Positions 12,128 to 24,342 of a DNA stretch of 46,921 nt are shown in pieces. This stretch comes from a bacterium (GTDB taxonomy: Bacteria; Patescibacteriota; Saccharimonadia; Saccharimonadales; SZUA-47), in the NCBI GenBank assembly GCA_030430915.1, contig JAUIKH010000002.1, positions 1 through 46,921 of the forward strand, given 5' to 3'. Both the position numbers and the translations under genes were made by a program. The notes beneath the pieces are model-generated. The model saw nothing but the letters and a program-made list of their open reading frames with translations. It was not told the DNA's origin and ran no database searches. Position 1 is the first letter of the stretch. Each line of letters begins with the position of its first letter.

Positions 12128-12772
12128 CTACTTCTTACTTTTCTTTTCTGTTGGCGCAATAGCTAAAGAATAAAGATTCATTCCTACTATCATACCTAGA
12201 ATTGGTGCAAGTAAGTATGTAGAATTTAGTGAATTGTTAGCTAGTGCTACGGCAGGATTCAAAAAGCCTGCAGCTGCTAATGAAGCTACTAAGGCGCCGA
12301 AAGTTAGTGCACCTCCGATAGCAAAAGCCGAATAACCACCTTTGAGCTTCTGCGAAATAGCTGCAATTATGCCCATGCCAAATACAGCTGAGCCGATCAT
12401 TTCAGCCCAAAAAACACGCCATTCAAAGCTACCGAAACCTACTTCTGGTAAATTAGTATTGGTCAGATAATTGTACATCAACAAAGCACATGCTCCACCT
12501 AGCATTTGAGCTGCGATATAGACTAGAGCATTAGTAGTGTTGATTTTACGTAATGTCCAAAGCCCCAAAGTAACCGCAGGGTTAACGTGTGCGCCAGAAA
12601 CACTTCCAAATAGTGCTACGACTAGGGCTAGGGTTGCGCCTGCAGATATTGAAATATACCATGCTGCTGTACCCAAGCCAAACATGTTAGCGACTACTAA
12701 AACTACTGATGCTAAAATTAGAGTTCCTAAAAACTCAGACAATATTAGTTTAATTTTATCCTTTGAAAACAT
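12128..12772 (-). CDS. MIP-family channel (aquaporin/glycerol facilitator)
   Basis: It has two NPA boxes (HVNPAVTLG and FLNPAVALA) and six hydrophobic segments. SD is AGGAGG. Confidence 0.9.
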   Translation of the reverse strand: MFSKDKIKLILSEFLGTLILASVVLVVANMFGLGTAAWYISISAGATLALVVALFGSVSGAHVNPAVTLGLWTLRKINTTNALVYIAAQMLGGACALLMYNYLTNTNLPEVGFGSFEWRVFWAEMIGSAVFGMGIIAAISQKLKGGYSAFAIGGALTFGALVASLAAAGFLNPAVALANNSLNSTYLLAPILGMIVGMNLYSLAIAPTEKKSKK

Positions 12773-12843
12773 ATAGACCTCCTAAAATGTTAATGCGCTA
12801 AGTATACATCTATTTTGAAGTTTTAAAAAATCTTAGGATTAAA

Positions 12844-13758
12844 CTAATCTACGATGACAGGAATGTCTTCGTGGCAAAGAATGGAAGCAGTGGCTAGGTT
12901 TAGCAATGCTAGTGTTTCTACCGTTCTATCCGTTTCTTCCTGATAACCCGAAGAGTTTAGGGCCTCAGCAGTCTTAGGAAAAGCCCAAGCATGGACTACA
13001 AAACCAGAAACTCCGAGCTCTTCTTTGACTTTCTGCATTTCAGGAGTCTTACCTGGTTTGGTTTTAATTAGAATAAATTGTCCATCATGATCACCCACTA
13101 GCTCTTCAAACCCGGCTCCAGAATCTCTAGAGGCATCTAATACACTGGCTCTGTCTTTGGCAAAGTAATCACCTTGTTCGACTCTAGCTTTGGCATTTGA
13201 TCCATATTCTTGTATACGCTCTGGTGTAATTTGATATCCTAGAGCATTTAAAGCGCTCCCTAAGTTTTCTCTGCTATCAGAAATTTCTTGATGTCTTTCT
13301 TGAGCTTTATTTGTCTGACCGCAACCACATGGTCCATGATTGTCACCGTGAGCACTTACACCTTCATTGCCTTTAGTTAGTGCAGCTGTGTTGCTTTTAA
13401 CTATTTCGATTTCTGTACTGCTTGCTGTTGTCTGTGCAATATCATGAGCATGGGCATTGCCCACTGGACCTCCAGCACTTCTTGGCAGTAAGCTTCTTGT
13501 TCCGTCTTCATAAAATCTTTCATCTATACAAATAGATGCAATAGAATCTTGCGATATATCATCATCAAACTCTCCGCTGAGAATACGGCTAAATTTTTCT
13601 GATAACTCAGGAGTCACTACTGTTCCTTCTCCGACAGATCCCTTACCTAATCCAAATTCGCCCAGTGTTTTATAGTCTACTTGTAACACATTTCCTCCTA
13701 ATAGATTAGGATCCTGTCCGTGCGAATCAAGCCCCAATTCAAAACTATTTTCTTTCAT
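12844..13758 (-). CDS. Hypothetical protein; possible divergent beta-carbonic-anhydrase-like zinc site
   Basis: ICIDERF (C-x-D-x-R) and, about 65 residues later, NHGPCGCG (H-x-x-C-G) match the two beta-CA zinc-ligand motifs. The rest is unrecognised. Confidence 0.5.
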   Translation of the reverse strand: MKENSFELGLDSHGQDPNLLGGNVLQVDYKTLGEFGLGKGSVGEGTVVTPELSEKFSRILSGEFDDDISQDSIASICIDERFYEDGTRSLLPRSAGGPVGNAHAHDIAQTTASSTEIEIVKSNTAALTKGNEGVSAHGDNHGPCGCGQTNKAQERHQEISDSRENLGSALNALGYQITPERIQEYGSNAKARVEQGDYFAKDRASVLDASRDSGAGFEELVGDHDGQFILIKTKPGKTPEMQKVKEELGVSGFVVHAWAFPKTAEALNSSGYQEETDRTVETLALLNLATASILCHEDIPVIVD

Positions 13759-13858
13759 TAATTTTCTCTTTCCTAGTGATTACTATCAATATTTTACTTG
13801 ATAATTATCACTTATAGCTGGCCATTATTCAAGTAAAATATTTGTTATAAGAGGTATT

Positions 13859-14230
13859 ATGCAATCATCAGTTAATCCAGAATGCAAAGAGTTACCAGTA
13901 AACTTGCCTACTGGTAGAGGGGAGACTAGCACAAAAACTGTAATCCCTGTAGACGTATTAGCAGTAGTTAATGCTCAAGATCTTGACTTACCTGATTTAG
14001 CATATTCAAACGTCGTAGATACGCTACAAAGATCTGATGATGTGCAAAGGTTTACAATAAACAGTATTCACGAAGCATCTAAGCAAGAGATGAACGACAG
14101 AGATAAGCGCAGAACAATATCTTTGTCTATACTAGTTGGACGGGTTATTCAAGCCGCAAATGATAGAGAAGCAGCCGAAGCCTCATTAAAAACAACTACA
14201 CAAGTCTTCTACCAGCCAAGAATATTTTAA
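13859..14230 (+). CDS. Hypothetical protein (123 aa)
   Basis: ORF only; no motif recognised. Confidence 0.4.
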   Translation: MQSSVNPECKELPVNLPTGRGETSTKTVIPVDVLAVVNAQDLDLPDLAYSNVVDTLQRSDDVQRFTINSIHEASKQEMNDRDKRRTISLSILVGRVIQAANDREAAEASLKTTTQVFYQPRIF

Positions 14231-14251
14231 TTAATAAAAATATTCCAAAGA

Positions 14252-15814
14252 CTATGAAGCCTTGTTTGCACGGGCAATCTTTTGTTCTTCTTTAAGTTTT
14301 AGTCCAAGTTTCTTTATTAGTGCAGGAGAAACAAAAGTAGTGATTATAACAACCAGAATAATTGTACTGAATAGCTCATCGCTTAAAACCCCTAACGCAC
14401 TACCAGTAGCTGCAAAGATCAGCCCAACTTCACCTCTTGGTACCATTGAAACTCCAACTAGCATTTTTTCTGTCATGCTGCCTTTCATTCCTATTCCAGA
14501 AACAAACTTGGCTGCAACTGCAACAACAGAAATAATACCCGCTATTAAATAAAGTTTTGGTTGTAGCAAAGAACCGAAATCAATTTGTAAACCTGTATAT
14601 ACAAAAAATACTGGAATAAAAATCAAACCAATACTGTTAATTAAATCTTCTACATGTGCATGTCTATGCTTTTTAATTAACTGTGCGACATTTGCACCAT
14701 TCTTATCGTCAGCTTCCAGATATTTTATATCTTCAATGATTTCTGGATCTGAAAAAGATTCAAAATGAACTGAATCCAGCAATAAACCGGCTGCAAAAGC
14801 TCCAATAATAGGCTCTAGACCAAAGATTTCTGCTAAATATCCAAAAACCAAAGCGAAGCTTATTGCTAAAGTAACCTTCATGCCTATTCCCGTGTTAATT
14901 GCACTAAACATTTTAGATAATGGTCTGGCAACTAAAGTACCTATATAAAGCGACCCAACCAAGAATCCAAATGACTTAAGAGCTAAAACTAACACGAGAC
15001 TAGCTGAGAGCTCACCGCCCGAAACTAACGCAGAAATTACAGCTAACACAATAAGCCCTAGAACATCATCGATAACTGCTGCCCCTAAGACTGTCTGAGC
15101 GGCTTTACTTCTTGTTAGCTTTAATGACCTAAAAACAGATGCGGTTATACCTACGCTAGTTGCTACTAAAGATGCTCCCAAAAATAATCTAGCGTTTGAA
15201 GATGCGTCACTAAAAAATATTGGCCCCAACACAAAAGAACCAACAACAAAAGGCACTACGACACCAATTATCGCAATTACAAGCGCACTTGCTCCAACCT
15301 TTTTCATGTCTTTAATCTGCGATTCTAGGCCGATAGAGAACAATAGCAAAAGGGCCCCAAACTGAGCTAAGAAACTGATTATTTCATTTGTCGCAACTTG
15401 AGATATAAAATCCCAGCCAAAGTAACCCAACGCAGATAAGGCTATGCCAGCTAGCAACTCTCCTATTACGGCAGGCTGACCATATTTTTCGACAATATTT
15501 CCTAATTTACCAGCTACAAGAACCAAGGCAAACATAGCAAACACTAATCCAAAGTGGTGCACAGCTGAATGGTCGGAATGATCTGACCCCATATCTTCTT
15601 CTATATGAGCTGCGTCTACATTTTCTTCAGAAGAATAATCTTCATCAATAACTATTATATGATCTTCTGAGGAATCGCGTTCTGTAATTGAGCTATTTGT
15701 TTGTTCTGAGTCCGCTCTAGCTTGAAATGGAGCAGCTATTTGAAACGCAGACACAGAAAAAATAATCAGGACAAAGCTAATCAAAGCTTTTTTCATATTT
15801 GCTTTATTCTCCAA
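14252..15814 (-). CDS. CPA2-type monovalent cation:proton antiporter with a signal peptide and an acidic/His-rich N-terminal extension
   Basis: GQPAVIGELLAGIALS and multiple TM segments are typical of the Na+/H+ exchanger family. The N-terminal ~85 aa hold a signal peptide plus DSSEDHIIVIDEDYSSEENVDAAHIEEDMGSDHSDHSAVHH. Confidence 0.8.
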   Translation of the reverse strand: MENKANMKKALISFVLIIFSVSAFQIAAPFQARADSEQTNSSITERDSSEDHIIVIDEDYSSEENVDAAHIEEDMGSDHSDHSAVHHFGLVFAMFALVLVAGKLGNIVEKYGQPAVIGELLAGIALSALGYFGWDFISQVATNEIISFLAQFGALLLLFSIGLESQIKDMKKVGASALVIAIIGVVVPFVVGSFVLGPIFFSDASSNARLFLGASLVATSVGITASVFRSLKLTRSKAAQTVLGAAVIDDVLGLIVLAVISALVSGGELSASLVLVLALKSFGFLVGSLYIGTLVARPLSKMFSAINTGIGMKVTLAISFALVFGYLAEIFGLEPIIGAFAAGLLLDSVHFESFSDPEIIEDIKYLEADDKNGANVAQLIKKHRHAHVEDLINSIGLIFIPVFFVYTGLQIDFGSLLQPKLYLIAGIISVVAVAAKFVSGIGMKGSMTEKMLVGVSMVPRGEVGLIFAATGSALGVLSDELFSTIILVVIITTFVSPALIKKLGLKLKEEQKIARANKAS

Positions 15815-15838
15815 AAGAGTAACTTATTTTACCAATGT

Positions 15839-15866
15839 ATTATATATCACATTTTACATGTGTCAA
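15839..15866 (-). promoter_or_regulatory. Consensus sigma70-type promoter for the antiporter gene
   Basis: The minus strand reads TTGACA-16 nt-TATAAT. It is followed by a ~18-nt leader containing a GGAG SD. Confidence 0.55.
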
Positions 15867-15897: not shown

Positions 15898-16323
15898 CTA
15901 TCGCCTTGAACGTCTACGTAATTCGGCAATCTTAAGCCTTGATGCTTGTCGATCCACAATTGCCTGTGCTTTGTCTAAAGATACCTGATCTTTTGCTTCT
16001 GAACGCAACTGTTTAGCACGTTTTAGTGCTTCTTCAGCTTCTTTAGCGCTAACTTCTGAATCTTTGTCGGCTTCATCTACCAACACTCTAACTGTACCCC
16101 CCGAAATCTCAATAACACCACTGTCTATGGCATAGTTTTCCATCATGTCGTCTGGATGATTATCCTTTTTTCTGACACTAATTACACCAGTTGAAGCTAT
16201 GCTAACTAACGGTGCATGGTTTTTGAACACTGCTATTTGTCCTTGTGGGGTAGGCAATAATACTTCGTGCACAGAATCACGTAATTTTACACCTGTTAGT
16301 GTTACTAATTCAAAATGAATCAT
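15898..16323 (-). CDS. atpC: F1 ATP synthase subunit epsilon
   Basis: MIHFELVTLTGVKL...GQIAVFKNHAPLVS...GGTVRVLVDEA, followed by a C-terminal helical hairpin. Confidence 0.9.
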   Translation of the reverse strand: MIHFELVTLTGVKLRDSVHEVLLPTPQGQIAVFKNHAPLVSIASTGVISVRKKDNHPDDMMENYAIDSGVIEISGGTVRVLVDEADKDSEVSAKEAEEALKRAKQLRSEAKDQVSLDKAQAIVDRQASRLKIAELRRRSRR

Positions 16324-16495
16324 TATCTATTCTTTCTATAATGTTGAAAATTATTAAAAATCTTCTTACCTGCCATAGCTACTCCTGCCATAGCTACAGC
16401 TCCAATAGCCGCATTGAAGGCTACAAATTTTATTGCTTCTTTATCTTCTACCATTTTAGGCAAAGGTACTATATCGATACGTTCTGATGAAACCA

Positions 16496-16496
<1 letters not shown>
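16323..16496 (-). CDS. Unannotated 57-aa single-TM micro-ORF between atpD and atpC
   Basis: My own translation is MVSSERIDIVPLPKMVEDKEAIKFVAFNAAIGAVAMAGVAMAGKKIFNNFQHYRKNR. Its ATG overlaps the atpD stop (TAATG at 16494-16498). Its TAA overlaps the atpC ATG (TAATG at 16321-16325). It fills the spacer exactly. Confidence 0.5.
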
Positions 16497-17887
<1,391 letters not shown>

Positions 17888-17932
17888 TTAATTCCTTTCT
17901 GATTGTTCTGATGTTTATTTATCTGGATTAAA

Positions 17933-18304
17933 TTATTCTTCATACTCATATTGGAACCTCTCTCTTTCTTCTGCAATCCCAAGCCTATGCCCTACAATCA
18001 GTCCACGGTGAGCTACACTATAAATAATGTTTTCAATAAGTTCATCTACTTCGCTCTTGGTCTGTTCATCAATGGTTGATATTCCTAAGCCAAGAACATT
18101 TATTATAGACCTTCTTGATGCAAGCTCAGTAATATAATCAACCGTATCCTTAAATTGGTGCAAAACATCATCTGTTATCATATCAGCAACATCATCACTA
18201 TTTACCGCCTCTTCTGGAGAAGAATTTGCTATTGGAAACATACGACCCCAAGCTTCTGCCGCATTGTCATTTGATAATAATTCCATATTTGTTGGATTTT
18301 TCAT
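17933..18304 (-). CDS. Hypothetical acidic protein (123 aa) embedded in the atp operon
   Basis: It is on the same strand as the operon. Its ATG overlaps the stop of the upstream 155-aa ORF (TAATG). There is no TM segment and no recognisable motif. Confidence 0.6.
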   Translation of the reverse strand: MKNPTNMELLSNDNAAEAWGRMFPIANSSPEEAVNSDDVADMITDDVLHQFKDTVDYITELASRRSIINVLGLGISTIDEQTKSEVDELIENIIYSVAHRGLIVGHRLGIAEERERFQYEYEE

Positions 18305-18771
18305 TATTTCATAGCCTCTGTTATTTCTTTTGTTAGACCTAGCTGTTTGGCTTCAGTAAATCTCTGGGCATAGTCAGGTGCCCAGTCGCTCCTCAAGAAA
18401 GAGTCCATGCTAGTTTTTTTATCAGCCTCAGGAACTTTTAAGTTATTCTTACTTCTGTATAAAAAATCAGCAAACCTAACATCATCAGATATTTCATCCA
18501 CCACTAAAGACCCTACATCAATAGCCAACTCTCTTGTTATAGTCTCTAGATCGTTTTCAGGAAATAACTTTTCTGATTCTTTTTTATAATGCTCATCAGA
18601 TCTAAGCGCACTGCCTAATGAAATGTTACCAGCATGAAACACTATGTCATCAGAATATCTGCTTATAACTCCGTCTATTCTTCTATTTCGTCCATGAAGG
18701 TTCGCTAATAAATCTATAGTCATGTCATTTATTAACTCACGTGACTCATGAACATTTGAGGTTGTCATCAT
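18304..18771 (-). CDS. Hypothetical protein (155 aa) embedded in the atp operon
   Basis: The start overlaps the atpG stop (ATGA/TGATG at 18766-18771), with a GGAGG SD inside the atpG 3' end. No motif recognised. Confidence 0.6.
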   Translation of the reverse strand: MMTTSNVHESRELINDMTIDLLANLHGRNRRIDGVISRYSDDIVFHAGNISLGSALRSDEHYKKESEKLFPENDLETITRELAIDVGSLVVDEISDDVRFADFLYRSKNNLKVPEADKKTSMDSFLRSDWAPDYAQRFTEAKQLGLTKEITEAMK

Positions 18772-19691
18772 TTCATAGCCTCCGCACCACCGGTAATTTC
18801 TGCTAGTTCTTGAGTAATAGCTGATTGTCTGGCTGAATTTGCTGCTAGTGTTAAATCATCAATTAAATCACCCGCATTATCGCTTGCAGTTTTCATAGCC
18901 ATCATTCTAGAACTTTGTTCACTAGCTTGGCTCTCGAGATATGCTTGCCAAAGCTGTACATCAATTAATCTATCTGACACTTCATCCAAAACTACTTTTG
19001 GACTTGGCTCAAAAATAGCGAGCTCAAGATCATTGGAAACCCTAACTTCAGAAAATGCTGCAGGTAACAATCTTTGTAGTGTAACTTCTTGTACAACGCT
19101 TGACTTATAGTCCGTAAACAAAACATCCACCGCATCTACTACGGGCTCGGACGTTACTTTTTTAGGTATTCCTGATTCCTCAGATTTAATTATCGTAGTT
19201 TCACCAGCAAATTGATTTTTGATAGTTGTCAACACCGCTTGCAGGTCACTTATTGTTGGTTTTTCTGGCATGTGATCATAACTACCAACTATCTCTAACC
19301 CTTGTACACGTGCAGCAAATTTTGCTGCTTGTTTGCCAATCAGAATAAGCTTAGTGTTAATTCCGTTTTCTTTATCCTGTTTTAATTCTTTAGTAAGTTG
19401 TCTTAATACGTTACTGTTGTAGGCTCCTGCTAGACCCCTATCACTTGTAATAACTATTAGTGTGCGGCATTTTACCTGTCTAGTCACAAAAAGTCGATGA
19501 TTACTGACGTCTGTTAATTCCCTAAGTCTAGTTAATATCTGAGCTGCAGTTTTTGTATAATCACGACTGGATAGGGTAGTCTCTTGAGCACGGCGCATTT
19601 TTGATGCAGCCACTAATTCCATAGCCTTGGTAATCTGTTTTGTATTCTTAACAGTTTTGATTCGGGCTTTTATCTGTTGCGTACTAGCCAT
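18768..19691 (-). CDS. atpG: F1 ATP synthase subunit gamma
   Basis: The canonical N-terminus MASTQQIKARIKTVKNTKQITKAMELVAASKMRRAQ has an AAGGAG SD 6 nt upstream. I therefore prefer the start at 19691 to the track's 19724. Confidence 0.92.
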   Translation of the reverse strand: MASTQQIKARIKTVKNTKQITKAMELVAASKMRRAQETTLSSRDYTKTAAQILTRLRELTDVSNHRLFVTRQVKCRTLIVITSDRGLAGAYNSNVLRQLTKELKQDKENGINTKLILIGKQAAKFAARVQGLEIVGSYDHMPEKPTISDLQAVLTTIKNQFAGETTIIKSEESGIPKKVTSEPVVDAVDVLFTDYKSSVVQEVTLQRLLPAAFSEVRVSNDLELAIFEPSPKVVLDEVSDRLIDVQLWQAYLESQASEQSSRMMAMKTASDNAGDLIDDLTLAANSARQSAITQELAEITGGAEAMK

Positions 19692-20013
19692 AGAAAGCTC
19701 CTTGACTTGCAGCGTTTTTAACATCTAACTGTCTGCTAATCTCTTGTGCAACGTCCATTACTTCAGTTAAATCTGTATGTACCTCACTAGATAGAGCAAC
19801 AGCAGAAAGCCACTCTTCTAACGGATAAGTCCGTTCGATCATATCAATTCTATCGTCTGAGAAGACTGGCTCATATTCCATAACTTCAACATCAGCAGAT
19901 TTTAATAAGAAGAATTGCCTTGTTTTCTCTAGGTAATCAACGCTAGGCTGAGTTGAGCTCTGATGTATAAAATCAGAAGCTGTTCTTACTAAATCTGCTT
20001 CAGATGATGCCAT
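19684..20013 (-). CDS. Hypothetical acidic protein (109 aa) embedded between atpA and atpG
   Basis: Its ATG overlaps the atpA stop (TAATG at 20011-20015). Its 3' end overlaps the atpG start by 8 nt (ATGGCTAG) and encodes the atpG SD. No motif recognised. Confidence 0.55.
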   Translation of the reverse strand: MASSEADLVRTASDFIHQSSTQPSVDYLEKTRQFFLLKSADVEVMEYEPVFSDDRIDMIERTYPLEEWLSAVALSSEVHTDLTEVMDVAQEISRQLDVKNAASQGAFYG

Positions 20014-21565: not shown

Positions 21566-21958
21566 CTAATTACTGCTATTTATTACTTGTTGTTTAAATC
21601 TATTCAATCTACCTTCTACAGTAAGGTCTACTTCTTGTTCTTTGGCTGAAGCCTTAACTCCACCTATCACACTCTTGTCTATTGTCTCGTTAAATACTGG
21701 ATTTTCTACATTTAAAAGCTTAGCGAGTTGCTTTTTAGTTGCCTGATCAATTTTGTATGCACTAACTATGCTAACTTGTGTACTGCCTCTTTTATCTAGC
21801 TCTTTTTCAATCGCTCTAAATAGCAAAGAAGACTCACGAGATCTTCTCTCAGCAAGTAAAAAAGAAGCTAGTGAATTAGCGACATCTTCAACCTTTGAGC
21901 CAGATCCAATTCTGTCAGCAGCATATGATGCTAGCTGGTTTATCGAGACTTTTGACAT
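21566..21958 (-). CDS. atpH: F1 ATP synthase subunit delta (OSCP), short form (130 aa)
   Basis: The C-terminal half ([21 protein letters not shown]...[31 protein letters not shown]) aligns with the delta C-terminal domain (IDxSvigG...DgSvrgrL). The position between atpF and atpA fits. Confidence 0.7.
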
Positions 21959-22515
21959 TACTTCATGGCCTCCTTGAGATAATCTTCTACTAGTTTTCTG
22001 TCTGAATTAGCATCTAGTTTTTGATTCAGTACTGCTTCTGTTGCTTCGGTCACCAAACCAGCCATTTCAGATTTCAGTTTGTTACGCGCCTGGGCGATTT
22101 CTCTCTCAATTTTGCCTTCTGCATCACGTAAGATATTTTCTGCTTTGCGGTTAGCAGATTCTTCAGCTTGCTGAATTATCGAACCAGATTCATTATGTGC
22201 TTCAGCAATAACTGCATCAGCATCTTTACGAGCTATTTTAAGTACTTGCTCAACCTTTTCATCTAGTTCTGCCTTTTGCTTATCCATCTCAGCAGTCAAA
22301 TGAAGCCCACGGTTAATATCATCGTGTCTTTTATCTAAATTTTTAACAATTCCATCTAGTGCAAACTTCTTTACTAGCCATAAAAGCAGTAAGAAAGTTA
22401 TTGCTTGTGCAGCTATGGCAAAAATATCTAAGCCCAAAGCACCAATACCTTCTGAAGCTTCTTGTGCATGCTCACCAGCTTTTTCTGCTGCTGCAAAAAT
22501 TCCCATTATATTCAT
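21958..22515 (-). CDS. atpF: Fo ATP synthase subunit b
   Basis: A single N-terminal TM segment (IAAQAITFLLLLWLVKKF) is followed by a long charged helix. The position fits. Confidence 0.85.
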   Translation of the reverse strand: MNIMGIFAAAEKAGEHAQEASEGIGALGLDIFAIAAQAITFLLLLWLVKKFALDGIVKNLDKRHDDINRGLHLTAEMDKQKAELDEKVEQVLKIARKDADAVIAEAHNESGSIIQQAEESANRKAENILRDAEGKIEREIAQARNKLKSEMAGLVTEATEAVLNQKLDANSDRKLVEDYLKEAMK

Positions 22516-22633
22516 CTGTTATATTATATCCTTTCTGGCTGCAATAACCACGACCGCTTCAAATCTTTTGAAAAGTTCGTCATTATTGCATATTACTCTC
22601 TATGTTTTGTTAATCGATTGAAATTTGTTGGGT

Positions 22634-22739
22634 TATTCGCTGATGAAGTACAAGGCAGAGGGCGGAGCTCAAGCGAGCTGTATTAGCTATACAGTGAGCG
22701 AGCACCGCAAACCTCTAACGCAGTAATTCGCTGCGAATA
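22634..22739 (-). other. G+C-rich nested-helix RNA element in the atpE-atpF spacer
   Basis: Four nested helices were read by eye. P1 is 22634-22640/22733-22739 (TATTCGC/GCGAATA). P2 is 22657-22665/22705-22716 (AGAGG+GCGG with an AAA bulge). P3 is 22667-22671/22695-22699 (GCTCA/TGAGC). P4 is 22678-22683/22689-22694 (CTGTAT/ATACAG). Total is about 27 bp in 106 nt. Confidence 0.4.
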
Positions 22740-22742
22740 TCC

Positions 22743-24033: not shown

Positions 24034-24342
24034 ATGTTTAATATATTTGCACATGCAGGAGAAAGACACGAAAGTGCAGCGGTGGCTGCAGCTCATGAAA
24101 TACCGTGGTTCATACAACTACCACTGTTCGTTGGCTTAATAATGTTATTTGCATTGATAGTTTGGCAACTGTCTAAGAAAACAGAACTTACTGTGTTGCT
24201 TACTTCCGCATTATTATTGATCAGCGGAATTGGCTTCTACGAAGCGGCACCAGCCATAAGTATTGTCGCCATTACTGCTGGCCTGTTTTCAACACTCTTT
24301 ATAACTTTAGTTGGTCTTGGGCCTAAACCAAGCAAAAAATAA
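24034..24342 (+). CDS. Small membrane protein (102 aa, ~3 TM)
   Basis: It has three hydrophobic segments. It is divergent from atpB. It does not look like AtpI. Confidence 0.5.
   Translation: MFNIFAHAGERHESAAVAAAHEIPWFIQLPLFVGLIMLFALIVWQLSKKTELTVLLTSALLLISGIGFYEAAPAISIVAITAGLFSTLFITLVGLGPKPSKK

What the first reader, a model, noticed from the sequence alone, without database searches (positions are those of the whole stretch)
17933..18771. Pair of overlapping unknown ORFs (155 aa + 123 aa) between atpG and atpD
The two ORFs are chained gamma-stop/X2-start and X2-stop/X3-start. A 54-nt spacer with a strong AAAGGAG SD then precedes atpD. Both are soluble-looking. X3 is strongly acidic and ends in ...ERERFQYEYEE. 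X2 ends in ...LTKEITEAMK, mirroring the C-termini of gamma (…GGAEAMK) and b (…YLKEAMK). A two-gene insertion between gamma and beta is not part of any F-, N- or described F1-like ATPase cluster that I know of.
Basis: seen in the sequence. Interest (0 to 1): 0.65.

Follow-up and report, generated by a model that had tools for sequence, protein, structure and literature searches.

The report
Variable extra genes inside ATP-synthase operon
Two real, co-translated small acidic genes of unknown function sit between the gamma and beta subunit genes of a Saccharibacteria (TM7) ATP synthase operon. They are one example of an apparently undescribed pattern: most Saccharibacteria carry fast-changing small genes at exactly three junctions of this otherwise very conserved operon.

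Summary
On the minus strand, X2 (18771-18304, 155 aa) overlaps the atpG stop by 4 nt (ATGA). X3 (18304-17933, 123 aa) overlaps the X2 stop by 1 nt (TAATG). A 54-nt spacer with AAAGGAG precedes atpD. Both ORFs have native codon usage and no match in Pfam, NCBIfam, PADLOC, PHROGs or PDB.

X2 belongs to a five-member Saccharibacteria-only family (26-28% identity, 13 invariant residues). It is always encoded directly after atpG, with stop/start overlap. X3 is an orphan: 1.84 billion representative proteins gave only itself. It is not a conserved partner of X2.

The shared 'EAMK' C-termini reflect a Shine-Dalgarno/start cassette (GAGGCTATGAAAT).

Across about 75 Saccharibacteria species, gaps over 150 bp filled by sense-strand, mostly acidic, mostly unrelated ORFs occur at alpha|gamma (35/77), gamma|beta (48/74) and beta|epsilon (39/67). 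They are rare at the other four junctions.

In one related pair the gamma|beta content was swapped wholesale, with boundaries at the atpG stop and just upstream of the atpD start. Cultured Southlakia epibionticum has a different protein in the same slot (SEML1_0356).

The function is untested. My best guess is an F1-associated accessory factor. The main rival is unrelated hitchhiker cargo.

The parts
18768..19691 (-). atpG (F1 gamma, 307 aa). Its last codons GAG GCT ATG AAA TGA carry the SD and the overlapping start of X2.
   Evidence: PF00231 1.6e-83; TIGR01146 285 bits against a cut-off of 194; junction sequence.
18304..18771 (-). X2, 155 aa, pI 5.0. Member of a five-protein Saccharibacteria-specific family always encoded directly after atpG. 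Predicted mostly helical.
   Evidence: family, synteny, invariant D16 M17 D20 R31 P71 E72 G87 R106 W130 D133 Y134 R137 A141; codon usage; AF2 pLDDT 58, pTM 0.53.
17933..18304 (-). X3, 123 aa, pI 4.4. Orphan ORF translationally coupled to X2 (TAATG).
   Evidence: No relative in 5.8 billion clusters or 1.84 billion representatives; the only other hits are repeat-protein artefacts. None in 80 related loci or in JGI metagenomes.
17879..17932 (-). 54-nt untranslated spacer with SD AAAGGAG, giving atpD its own initiation site.
   Evidence: No terminator-like site on this strand in the spacer or in X2/X3.
16496..17878 (-). atpD (F1 beta, 460 aa).
   Evidence: PF00006, PF02874 and PF22919.
18770..18782 (-). 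Coupling cassette GAGGCTATGAAAT, copy 1 (end of atpG).
18306..18318 (-). Coupling cassette GAGGCTATGAAAT, copy 2 (end of X2). The two exact 13-nt copies flank X2 as a direct repeat. A copy with two mismatches lies at the end of atpF (21960-21972).
19684..20013 (-). X1, 109 aa, pI 4.2. Orphan ORF in the alpha|gamma slot (1-nt overlap with the atpA stop). Same phenomenon.
16323..16496 (-). X4, 57 aa, basic, with one hydrophobic segment. Orphan ORF in the beta|epsilon slot, with 1-nt overlaps on both sides.

Best explanation
X2 and X3 are genuine protein-coding genes. They are transcribed with the F-type atp operon of a Saccharibacterium and translated by coupling to atpG (ATGA, then TAATG). They occupy the gamma|beta 'slot', one of three junctions of the F1 gene block (alpha|gamma, gamma|beta, beta|epsilon). 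In most Saccharibacteria these three junctions hold small, mostly acidic, fast-turning-over ORFs.

X2 is a constrained member of a small family locked to the position right after atpG. X3 is a species-level orphan in the same slot.

Inferred, not shown: the products are made next to gamma, possibly at gamma-like levels through translational coupling, and act on F1 as lineage-specific accessory factors. They might be a gamma- or stalk-binding assembly chaperone, or a brake on ATP hydrolysis, in an organism whose ATPase probably runs in reverse. The slot contents are exchanged between lineages, plausibly by recombination through the conserved flanking atpG and atpD.
For: Shown:
- Real coding sequence with native codon usage.
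- Stop/start overlaps and SDs at every junction.
- No terminator-like site inside X2, X3 or the spacer.
- X2 family: 5 members, E 6e-22 to 1e-62 against 5.8 billion clusters. All lie directly after atpG (4 with ATGA, 1 with TAATG) and upstream of atpD. Identity is 26-28% where gamma is 60-66% and beta 82-85%.
- Junction specificity across about 75 species, gaps over 150 bp: a|c 2/58, c|b 9/60, b|delta 5/47, delta|alpha 3/49, alpha|gamma 35/77, gamma|beta 48/74, beta|epsilon 39/67.
- The longest sense ORF beats the longest antisense ORF in 46/48 gamma|beta gaps. In 37 of the gamma|beta gaps the first ORF overlaps the atpG stop, by 4 nt in 30 and by 1 nt in 7.
- Gap-ORF families are position-specific, with one exception: the 23S_rRNA_IVP family spans beta|epsilon and alpha|gamma. 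No family has copies in about 460 kb of flanking DNA.
- An alpha|gamma ORF pair shows dN/dS of about 0.1.
- 85% of gamma|beta ORFs have pI below 5.5, against 45% of other genes in the window (Fisher p = 4e-5).
- Southlakia epibionticum has a 160-aa gene in the same slot, overlapping both gamma and beta. It is flagged 'core family' and 'Patescibacteria-enriched'. Its transposon mutants decline like atp mutants: 1470/748/275 against gamma 1393/918/302 (PMC10633639 Table S1).
Against: - There is no direct evidence of binding to F1.
- Structure models are weak (X2 pLDDT 58, X3 pLDDT 43) and match nothing in the PDB.
- Slot contents are extremely heterogeneous: 146 singletons among 190 gap ORFs.
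- The closest relatives (gamma 69-75% identical) have entirely different ORFs, with DNA similarity ending at the canonical gene ends.
- Some slots hold obviously unrelated genes: basic 23S-rRNA-IVP/Avd-like proteins and a Crp regulator.
- The Southlakia slot protein has a different fold (N-deoxyribosyltransferase-like). The matching Tn-seq decline can be a polar effect on atpD and atpC.
- ATP synthase is dispensable in Southlakia, which would relax selection against insertions (PMC10633639).
- X3 has no comparative support for any constraint.
- No RNA data were found.
Confidence: 0.42

Rival explanations
1. Hitchhiker cargo. The three F1 junctions are permissive 'landing pads' in a non-essential operon. 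Unrelated small genes (for example immunity-, antitoxin- or anti-defence-like acidic proteins, IVP/Avd-like proteins, regulators) are dropped in and swapped by recombination through the conserved atp genes. They are kept for their own functions and have nothing to do with ATP synthase.
For: - Wholesale replacement of the gamma|beta content between L024 and L019. About 79% nt identity runs through alpha, the alpha|gamma ORF and gamma, stops exactly at the atpG stop and resumes about 25 nt before atpD.
- Families are scattered over the gamma+beta tree.
- 5 slot genes are PF05635 23S_rRNA_IVP, and one 3.8-kb insertion carries a Crp regulator.
- The slot protein has a different fold in Southlakia.
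- ATP synthase is dispensable there, and Saccharibacteria are naturally competent (PMC10633639).
- Small, acidic, orphan-like proteins are typical of conflict genes (own knowledge).
Against: - Occupancy is restricted to three of seven junctions.
- Families are position-specific apart from the 23S_rRNA_IVP family, and none was seen outside atp operons in the flanks sampled.
- X2-family synteny is 5 of 5.
- No PADLOC or PHROGs hits.
- Native composition and codon usage.
- No mobile-element genes or repeats beyond the 13-nt cassette.
Confidence: 0.33
2. Translated spacers. The DNA between F1 genes is kept as open, ribosome-covered reading frames only to maintain or tune translational coupling and subunit stoichiometry (3:1:3:1 for alpha:gamma:beta:epsilon), or to avoid polarity and mRNA decay. 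The peptides themselves have little or no function. This would apply mainly to X3, X1 and X4.
For: - Start/stop overlaps are conserved while the sequences are not.
- Slots lie at the transitions between three-copy and one-copy subunits.
- X3, X1 and X4 are orphans.
- atpD re-initiates from its own strong SD after a spacer.
Against: - The X2 family keeps 13 invariant residues across deep divergence.
- dN/dS is about 0.1 for an alpha|gamma family.
- The gap ORFs have an acidic bias, whereas (by my reasoning, not computed here) chance ORFs in AT-rich DNA should be K/N/I-rich and basic. They also show the GC1>GC2>GC3 pattern and codon usage typical of established genes.
- Many Saccharibacteria and other bacteria manage without any spacer.
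Confidence: 0.15
3. Artefact or decay: misassembly, a frameshifted single gene, or a pseudogenised remnant of a canonical subunit.
For: None beyond the lack of homologues for X3.
Against: - Identical sequence in independent runs and contigs.
- Intact frames with native codon usage.
- X2's C-terminus lies where the other family members end.
- No similarity to any atp subunit.
Confidence: 0.02

Closest known systems
Canonical bacterial F1Fo atp operon (atpIBEFHAGDC)
   Same: Same eight core genes in the same order (B-E-F-H-A-G-D-C). All pass the Pfam models, and gamma passes the TIGR01146 equivalog cut-off.
   Different: Four extra ORFs (X1-X4) sit at alpha|gamma, gamma|beta and beta|epsilon. 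No atpI was seen upstream. In the two non-Saccharibacteria loci the alpha|gamma and gamma|beta gaps are 55-154 bp. In E. coli all three are about 20-50 bp (own knowledge).
SEML1_0356 of Southlakia epibionticum ML1 (cultured Saccharibacterium; Wang et al. 2023, PMC10633639 Tables S1/S2)
   Same: A gene of about 160 aa in exactly the same slot, overlapping the gamma stop by 4 nt. It is annotated 'hypothetical', non-essential, and not discussed in the passages of that paper's text that mention ATP synthase.
   Different: The authors' structure-based annotation is N-deoxyribosyltransferase-like/DUF4406 (an alpha/beta fold), whereas X2 is predicted to be mostly helical. It overlaps atpD directly, with no second ORF.
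Protein inhibitors and regulators of F1 (epsilon C-terminal domain, zeta subunit of Paracoccus, IF1, cyanobacterial AtpTheta) and F1 assembly factors (Atp11, Atp12)
   Same: Small soluble proteins that act on the alpha/beta/gamma interface or on unassembled subunits. This is the functional analogy I consider most likely for X2.
   Different: No match to any Pfam family at E<=1, and therefore none to these. Those proteins are generally not encoded between atpG and atpD (own knowledge). Nothing tested here shows binding.
N-ATPase (atpDCQRBEFAG) and Mycoplasma F1-like-X0 clusters
   Same: ATPase clusters that carry extra small genes.
   Different: Gene order and subunits here are standard F-type. 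The alternate gamma model TIGR03323 scores 72 bits against a cut-off of 282. AtpQ and AtpR are membrane proteins, whereas X2 and X3 are soluble.
23S rRNA intervening-sequence protein / Avd-like four-helix bundles (PF05635, PF22296)
   Same: Small helical proteins known for sitting inside otherwise conserved genes or operons. Five Saccharibacteria have one in an atp slot.
   Different: Those are basic (pI 8.6-9.9 for the four full-length ones) and well conserved. X2 and X3 are acidic and do not match PF05635 even at E<=1.
Flagellar/T3SS export chaperones (FliT, FlgN, FliS) that bind FliJ, the gamma homologue
   Same: Small, acidic, helical proteins that dock on the stalk protein of an F1-like ATPase (own knowledge). 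This is an analogy only.
   Different: No homology was tested or found. It is a lead from memory.

Membership tests
F-type ATP synthase operon (context) | Core subunits a, c, b, delta, alpha, gamma, beta and epsilon present and in canonical order. | tested here: met
   Pfam hits for all eight. TIGR01146 gamma scores 285 bits, above the cut-off of 194.
Known ATP-synthase accessory, inhibitor or assembly families (AtpI/AtpZ, zeta/DUF1476, IF1, Atp11, Atp12, AtpQ/R) | Sequence match of X2 or X3 to the family model. | tested here: not met
   Pfam at E<=1 gave no hit for X2 and only sub-threshold noise for X3. No Pfam hit for any of the 5 X2-family members at E<=5. NCBIfam gave nothing.
N-ATPase / alternate F1Fo | Alternate-type gamma (TIGR03323) and atpDCQRBEFAG order. 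| tested here: not met
   TIGR03323 scores 72 bits against a cut-off of 282. The gene order is canonical.
Anti-phage defence systems / phage proteins | Match to PADLOC or PHROGs profiles. | tested here: not met
   PADLOC gave 0 hits. The best PHROGs hit has E = 0.08, function unknown.
23S_rRNA_IVP / Avd-like | Match to PF05635 or PF22296; basic four-helix bundle. | tested here: not met
   No hit at E<=1. X2 and X3 are acidic.
X2 family (new; defined here) | Significant profile match plus the motifs ExDMxxD, FPE and W(A/S)xDY(A/S)xR; gene directly after atpG with stop/start overlap. | tested here: met
   X2 against L008 gives E 1e-7 and against L024 6.5e-5 in the pool. The profile search gives E 1e-62 to 6e-22 for four relatives. 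Synteny holds in 5 of 5.
X2 family (new; defined here) | X3 as a conserved partner gene. | tested here: not met
   L008, L082 and L083 have atpD directly after the X2-like gene. L024 has two unrelated ORFs.
Physical subunit or accessory factor of F1 | Co-purification or a predicted interface with gamma, epsilon or alpha3beta3. | not testable with these tools
Diverged duplicate of a canonical atp subunit | Detectable similarity to a, c, b, delta, alpha, gamma, beta or epsilon of the same operon. | tested here: not met
   Best phmmer E-values are 0.016-0.05 in a 12-sequence space. hhalign of the X2 family against delta gives probability 0.2%.

The most novel reading that the evidence does not exclude
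The three F1 junction slots of Saccharibacteria are a conflict-driven or niche-driven cassette system. Rapidly exchanged, translationally coupled small acidic proteins dock on the gamma/beta region of F1. There they either gate its reverse (ATP-hydrolysing) operation or shield it from inhibitors made by hosts, competitors or phages. On this reading, X2 and X3 are two such lineage-specific F1 modulators, and an 'invariant' molecular machine carries a hypervariable regulatory periphery in an episymbiont.
Probability: 0.12. Interest if true: 0.85.

Novelty: new variant of a known kind. Interest (0 to 1): 0.6.

Why it matters
The F1Fo operon is one of the most conserved gene arrangements in bacteria. 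Why respiration-less Patescibacteria keep an ATP synthase is an open question (PMC11665869, PMC10633639).

If the slot proteins act on F1, they would be new accessory or regulatory subunits. They could explain how these episymbionts control a reverse-running ATPase.

If they do not, the operon is a striking natural example of a conserved, translationally coupled operon used as an exchangeable expression platform for orphan genes. That is relevant to gene birth, gene turnover and recombination in naturally competent ultra-small bacteria.

Either way it is testable now, because genetically tractable Southlakia epibionticum carries a gene in the same slot (SEML1_0356).

Tried and rejected
- **Word-indexed homology searches with X2 and X3.** They returned only the queries themselves.
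- **Exhaustive HMMER search with X3.** It returned only X3 itself plus two proteins of about 980 aa made of 10-11 tandem repeats. Their scores are sums of weak repeat matches, so I rejected them as artefacts.
- **Two JGI metagenome scans** (X3; X2-family profile). Neither found anything.
- **tblastn, phmmer, jackhmmer, hhalign and shuffled Smith-Waterman** of X1-X4 against the gap ORFs of 80 loci. Only X2 found relatives. Nothing matched in the six closest genomes.
- **AF2 models.** They are too weak for fold assignment, and Foldseek against the PDB gave a best E-value of 1.6.
- **PDB sequence search.** Nothing.
- **X2 or X3 as diverged copies of delta or b.** Rejected.
- **The 'VVLHDVDHG' slot family (L004, L016, L021, L031) as the Southlakia N-deoxyribosyltransferase-like protein.** It looks plausible by eye but has no Pfam support, so it remains a lead.
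- **RNA-seq evidence.** No runs were available.
- **Population variation for pN/pS.** The contigs in other runs are identical and carry no signal.
- **Literature.** No paper in the held library describes genes between atpG and atpD in Saccharibacteria or CPR.
Full report
**What is in the sequence.** The window is a 37% GC contig of a Saccharibacterium (TM7, Patescibacteria). The 75 best atpG matches in the species-representative genome collection come from Saccharibacteria/Patescibacteria MAGs or unclassified 'bacterium' MAGs, apart from one binned as Burkholderiaceae. The F-type atp operon lies on the minus strand:

| Gene | Coordinates |
|---|---|
| atpB | 23892-23059 |
| atpE | 22994-22743 |
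| atpF | 22515-21958 |
| atpH | 21958-21566 |
| atpA | 21557-20013 |
| X1 (109 aa) | 20013-19684 |
| atpG | 19691-18768 |
| X2 (155 aa) | 18771-18304 |
| X3 (123 aa) | 18304-17933 |
| atpD | 17878-16496 |
| X4 (57 aa) | 16496-16323 |
| atpC | 16323-15898 |

- ATGA overlap between gamma and X2.
- TAATG overlap between X2 and X3.
- A 54-nt spacer with AAAGGAG before atpD.
- An acidic X3 ending ERERFQYEYEE.
- X2, gamma and b all ending in EAMK.

**Are they genes?** Yes.
- An open frame of 155 or 123 codons has a chance probability of 2e-5 or 2e-4 at this composition.
- A codon model trained on 18 other long genes of the window gives +0.30 (X2) and +0.33 (X3) bits per codon in frame. The atp genes give 0.29-0.45, and all five alternative frames are negative.
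- GC1>GC2>GC3 matches the neighbouring genes.
- Each ORF has an SD at the right distance. No terminator-like hairpin lies on the coding strand in X2, X3 or the spacer.
- Near-identical contigs over the stretch (0-1 differences) are present in metagenomes of independent studies: aquaculture, biofloc, invertebrate and food.

**What are they related to?** Nothing known. Pfam, NCBIfam, PADLOC, PHROGs and PDB sequences gave no credible hit.

X3 is an orphan. The word-indexed search of 5.8 billion clusters returned only X3 itself. So did the exhaustive HMMER search of 1.84 billion representatives, apart from two ~980-aa tandem-repeat proteins with 10-11 weak stretches, which are artefacts. A JGI metagenome scan found nothing.

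X2 has a small family. Among the ORFs I extracted from the gaps of 80 related atp operons, X2 matches the ORF directly after atpG in L008 (E 1e-7) and in L024 (E 6.5e-5). A profile of the three retrieved two more members, P0007 and P0008 (E 6e-22 and 8e-21 against 5.8 billion).

All five are encoded immediately after atpG, four with an ATGA overlap and one with TAATG. All lie upstream of atpD. Identity is 26-28% where gamma is 60-66% and beta 82-85%. Thirteen residues are invariant: D16, M17, D20, R31, P71, E72, G87, R106, W130, D133, Y134, R137 and A141. So X2 is under protein-level constraint but evolves much faster than the core subunits.

X3 is not its partner. In three of the four other genomes atpD follows the X2-like gene directly, and in L024 two unrelated ORFs follow.

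AF2 gives a mostly helical, low-confidence X2 (pLDDT 58, pTM 0.53) and an unreliable X3 (pLDDT 43). Foldseek finds nothing. Neither protein resembles any canonical atp subunit.

**The EAMK 'mirror'.** Gamma ends ...GAG GCT ATG AAA TGA and X2 ends ...GAG GCT ATG AAA TAA. The 13-mer GAGGCTATGAAAT is exact at 18770-18782 and 18306-18318. A copy with two mismatches closes atpF.

The motif is the SD (GGAGG or AGAGG) plus the spacer and the overlapping start of the next gene. Gamma ends in EAMK or EAIK in 40 of the 65 gamma termini counted in the 12 commonest classes. The gamma-end cassette is conserved in all five X2-bearing loci, but only this window repeats it at the X2 end.

It is therefore a translational-coupling cassette, not a protein motif. 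The exact direct repeat flanking X2 may be a recombination or duplication scar, or it may be convergence. I cannot tell which.

**The wider pattern, which is the main result.** I located the core genes by tblastn in about 75 Saccharibacteria species representatives and measured every junction.

| Junction | Gaps over 150 bp |
|---|---|
| a\|c | 2/58 |
| c\|b | 9/60 |
| b\|delta | 5/47 |
| delta\|alpha | 3/49 |
| alpha\|gamma | 35/77 |
| gamma\|beta | 48/74 (median gap about 300 bp, maximum about 1.3 kb) |
| beta\|epsilon | 39/67 |

- Of 65 genomes with all three F1 junctions measured, 53 have at least one occupied slot and 19 have all three.
- The gaps are filled by sense-strand ORFs. The longest sense ORF exceeds the longest antisense ORF in 37/37, 46/48 and 37/38 cases for the three junctions.
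- In the gamma|beta gaps, the first ORF overlaps the atpG stop by 4 nt in 30 and by 1 nt in 7.
- The ORFs are small (median about 100 aa) and acidic. 85% of gamma|beta ORFs have pI below 5.5, against 45% of other genes in the window (p = 4e-5).
- They are extremely diverse: 190 ORFs fall into 163 clusters, 146 of them singletons.
- The multi-member clusters are position-specific, with one exception: the 23S_rRNA_IVP family spans beta|epsilon and alpha|gamma. No cluster had copies in about 460 kb of DNA flanking the operons.
- One alpha|gamma family pair gives dN/dS of about 0.1.
- Only a few slot genes are recognisable: five basic PF05635 (23S-rRNA-IVP/Avd-like) proteins and a Crp regulator inside a 3.8-kb insertion.
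- On a gamma+beta tree, basal lineages mostly lack inserts. The derived clades have them, with families scattered across the tree.

**Turnover.** The six closest genomes (gamma 69-75% and beta 88-91% identical) align at 68-81% nt identity across every core gene. Similarity ends at or within about 40 nt of the gene ends, and their slot ORFs show no similarity to X1-X4.

L024, which carries an X2-family gene, and L019 give the clearest case. They are about 79% identical without interruption through atpA, a conserved alpha|gamma ORF (71% aa identity) and atpG. Similarity stops at the atpG stop and resumes about 25 nt before atpD. In between lie unrelated ORFs: 164+169+69 aa in L024 against 161+244 aa in L019.

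The X2 family stays recognisable over much deeper splits. Its absence from L019 and from this window's nearest relatives therefore means replacement or loss, not divergence. This is an inference.

**A cultured example.** In Southlakia epibionticum ML1, Table S1 of PMC10633639 lists SEML1_0356, 'hypothetical protein', at 341945-342427. It lies between gamma (ending at 341948) and beta (starting at 342420).
- It is flagged as a core and Patescibacteria-enriched family, and as non-essential.
- Its normalised transposon reads fall 1470 to 748 to 275. This parallels gamma (1393, 918, 302) and beta (2824, 1682, 607), while flanking non-atp genes stay flat or rise.
- Table S2 assigns it an N-deoxyribosyltransferase-like/DUF4406 fold.

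The decline may be a polar effect. The passages of that paper's text that mention ATP synthase do not mention this gene; they note only that all ATP synthase components are dispensable. I found no paper describing genes inside the F1 block of Saccharibacteria or CPR.

**Interpretation.**

Shown:
- X2 and X3 are real, translationally coupled genes in a lineage-wide, junction-specific, rapidly turning-over slot.
- X2 belongs to a constrained, syntenically fixed family.
- X3 is an orphan.

Inferred as most likely (about 0.4): the products act on F1, as a gamma-proximal accessory, assembly or regulatory factor. The grounds are the restriction to the three F1 junctions, the position-specific families, the strict coupling to gamma, and the atp-like Tn-seq behaviour of the Southlakia slot gene.

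Main rival (about 0.33): unrelated cargo exploiting a dispensable operon, exchanged by recombination through the conserved flanks. The grounds are the heterogeneity of folds and families, the IVP and Crp insertions, and the wholesale replacement.

Third reading (about 0.15, mainly for X3, X1 and X4): translated spacers whose peptides hardly matter.

An artefact or pseudogene is excluded.

**Comparison with known systems.** The operon is a bona fide F-type operon, not an N-ATPase or a Mycoplasma F1-like cluster. X2 and X3 are not members of any described accessory, inhibitor or assembly family (zeta, IF1, AtpTheta, AtpI/Z, Atp11/12). They are not members of defence or phage families, or of the IVP/Avd family. 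The functional analogies to F1 inhibitors and assembly factors, and to the acidic helical chaperones that bind the gamma homologue FliJ, are leads from memory, not tests.

**Verdict.** I rate it a new variant of a known kind, with interest of about 0.6. The interest lies mainly in the phylum-wide slot phenomenon and in the fact that it can be tested in a cultured strain.

Noticed in passing
window 19684-20013 (-) and 16323-16496 (-): X1 (109 aa, pI 4.2) lies between atpA and atpG. X4 (57 aa, basic, one hydrophobic segment) lies between atpD and atpC. Both are coupled by 1-nt overlaps, have native codon usage and have no relatives in the 80 loci. X4 has a weak (z = 3) resemblance to the 52-aa ORF just before atpC in L072.
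   Followed up: partly
window 21566-21958 (-): The delta subunit is only 130 aa and matches just positions 62-171 of the 172-position OSCP model, so the first ~60 positions of the model have no counterpart. Southlakia's delta is also short (381 nt). This may be a lineage feature of the peripheral stalk.
   Followed up: no
window 22516-22742 (-): A 227-nt stretch with no ORF between atpE (c) and atpF (b). Nine of 60 Saccharibacteria have more than 150 bp here, but none has more than 300 bp.
   Followed up: no
window 12128-15866 (-): Directly downstream of atpC there is a perfect sigma-70 consensus (TTGACA-16-TATAAT, 15866->15839). It is followed by a Na+/H+ exchanger (14252-15814), a CDCA-type (cadmium) carbonic-anhydrase-repeat protein (12844-13758) and a MIP channel (12128-12772). 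This looks like an ion/pH-homeostasis neighbourhood next to the ATPase.
   Followed up: partly
window about 19136-19576 (-), inside atpG: DNA similarity to several close relatives breaks inside gamma. Gamma match length varies from 861 to 948 nt among loci, so gamma itself carries a lineage-variable insertion of about 20-30 aa in its globular part.
   Followed up: no
L007:3963-4337, L032:3617-4009, L060:7671-8084, L070:9432-9800 (beta|epsilon); L052:1315-1524 (alpha|gamma): Five slot genes are PF05635 '23S rRNA intervening sequence protein' (Avd-like four-helix bundle). The four full-length ones have pI 8.6-9.9. This family is known for sitting inside conserved genes; here it is inside the atp operon.
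   Followed up: partly
L020:9335-13095: A 3.8-kb insertion between atpD and atpC contains a Crp/cNMP-binding regulator and several small ORFs.
   Followed up: no
L024:7867-9078 vs L019:7867-9026: The gamma|beta cassette was replaced between two genomes that are about 79% identical across the rest of the operon. The boundaries are at the atpG stop and about 25 nt before the atpD start.
   Followed up: yes
L004:7867-8292, L021:3557-4006, L016:8421-8765, L031:7864-8238: A recurrent gamma|beta slot family (motif VVLHDVDHG ... aDhvliqDsLl). By eye it looks like an alpha/beta N-deoxyribosyltransferase-like fold, as annotated for Southlakia SEML1_0356. It has no Pfam support. L029:657-1286 shows the motif by eye but clusters with L048.
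   Followed up: partly
L015:2429-2686, L034:1692-1916, L054:7870-8163: Short acidic C-terminal motif D(A/S/P)SG(L/N)D(Q/T/S)EF(N/Y)E(P/T). L015 and L034 cluster together and L054 is a separate singleton. It may be a linear docking motif.
   Followed up: no
window 24034-24342 (+): No atpI/AtpZ-like ORF lies on the operon strand upstream of atpB. Instead a 102-aa membrane-protein ORF lies on the opposite strand.
   Followed up: no
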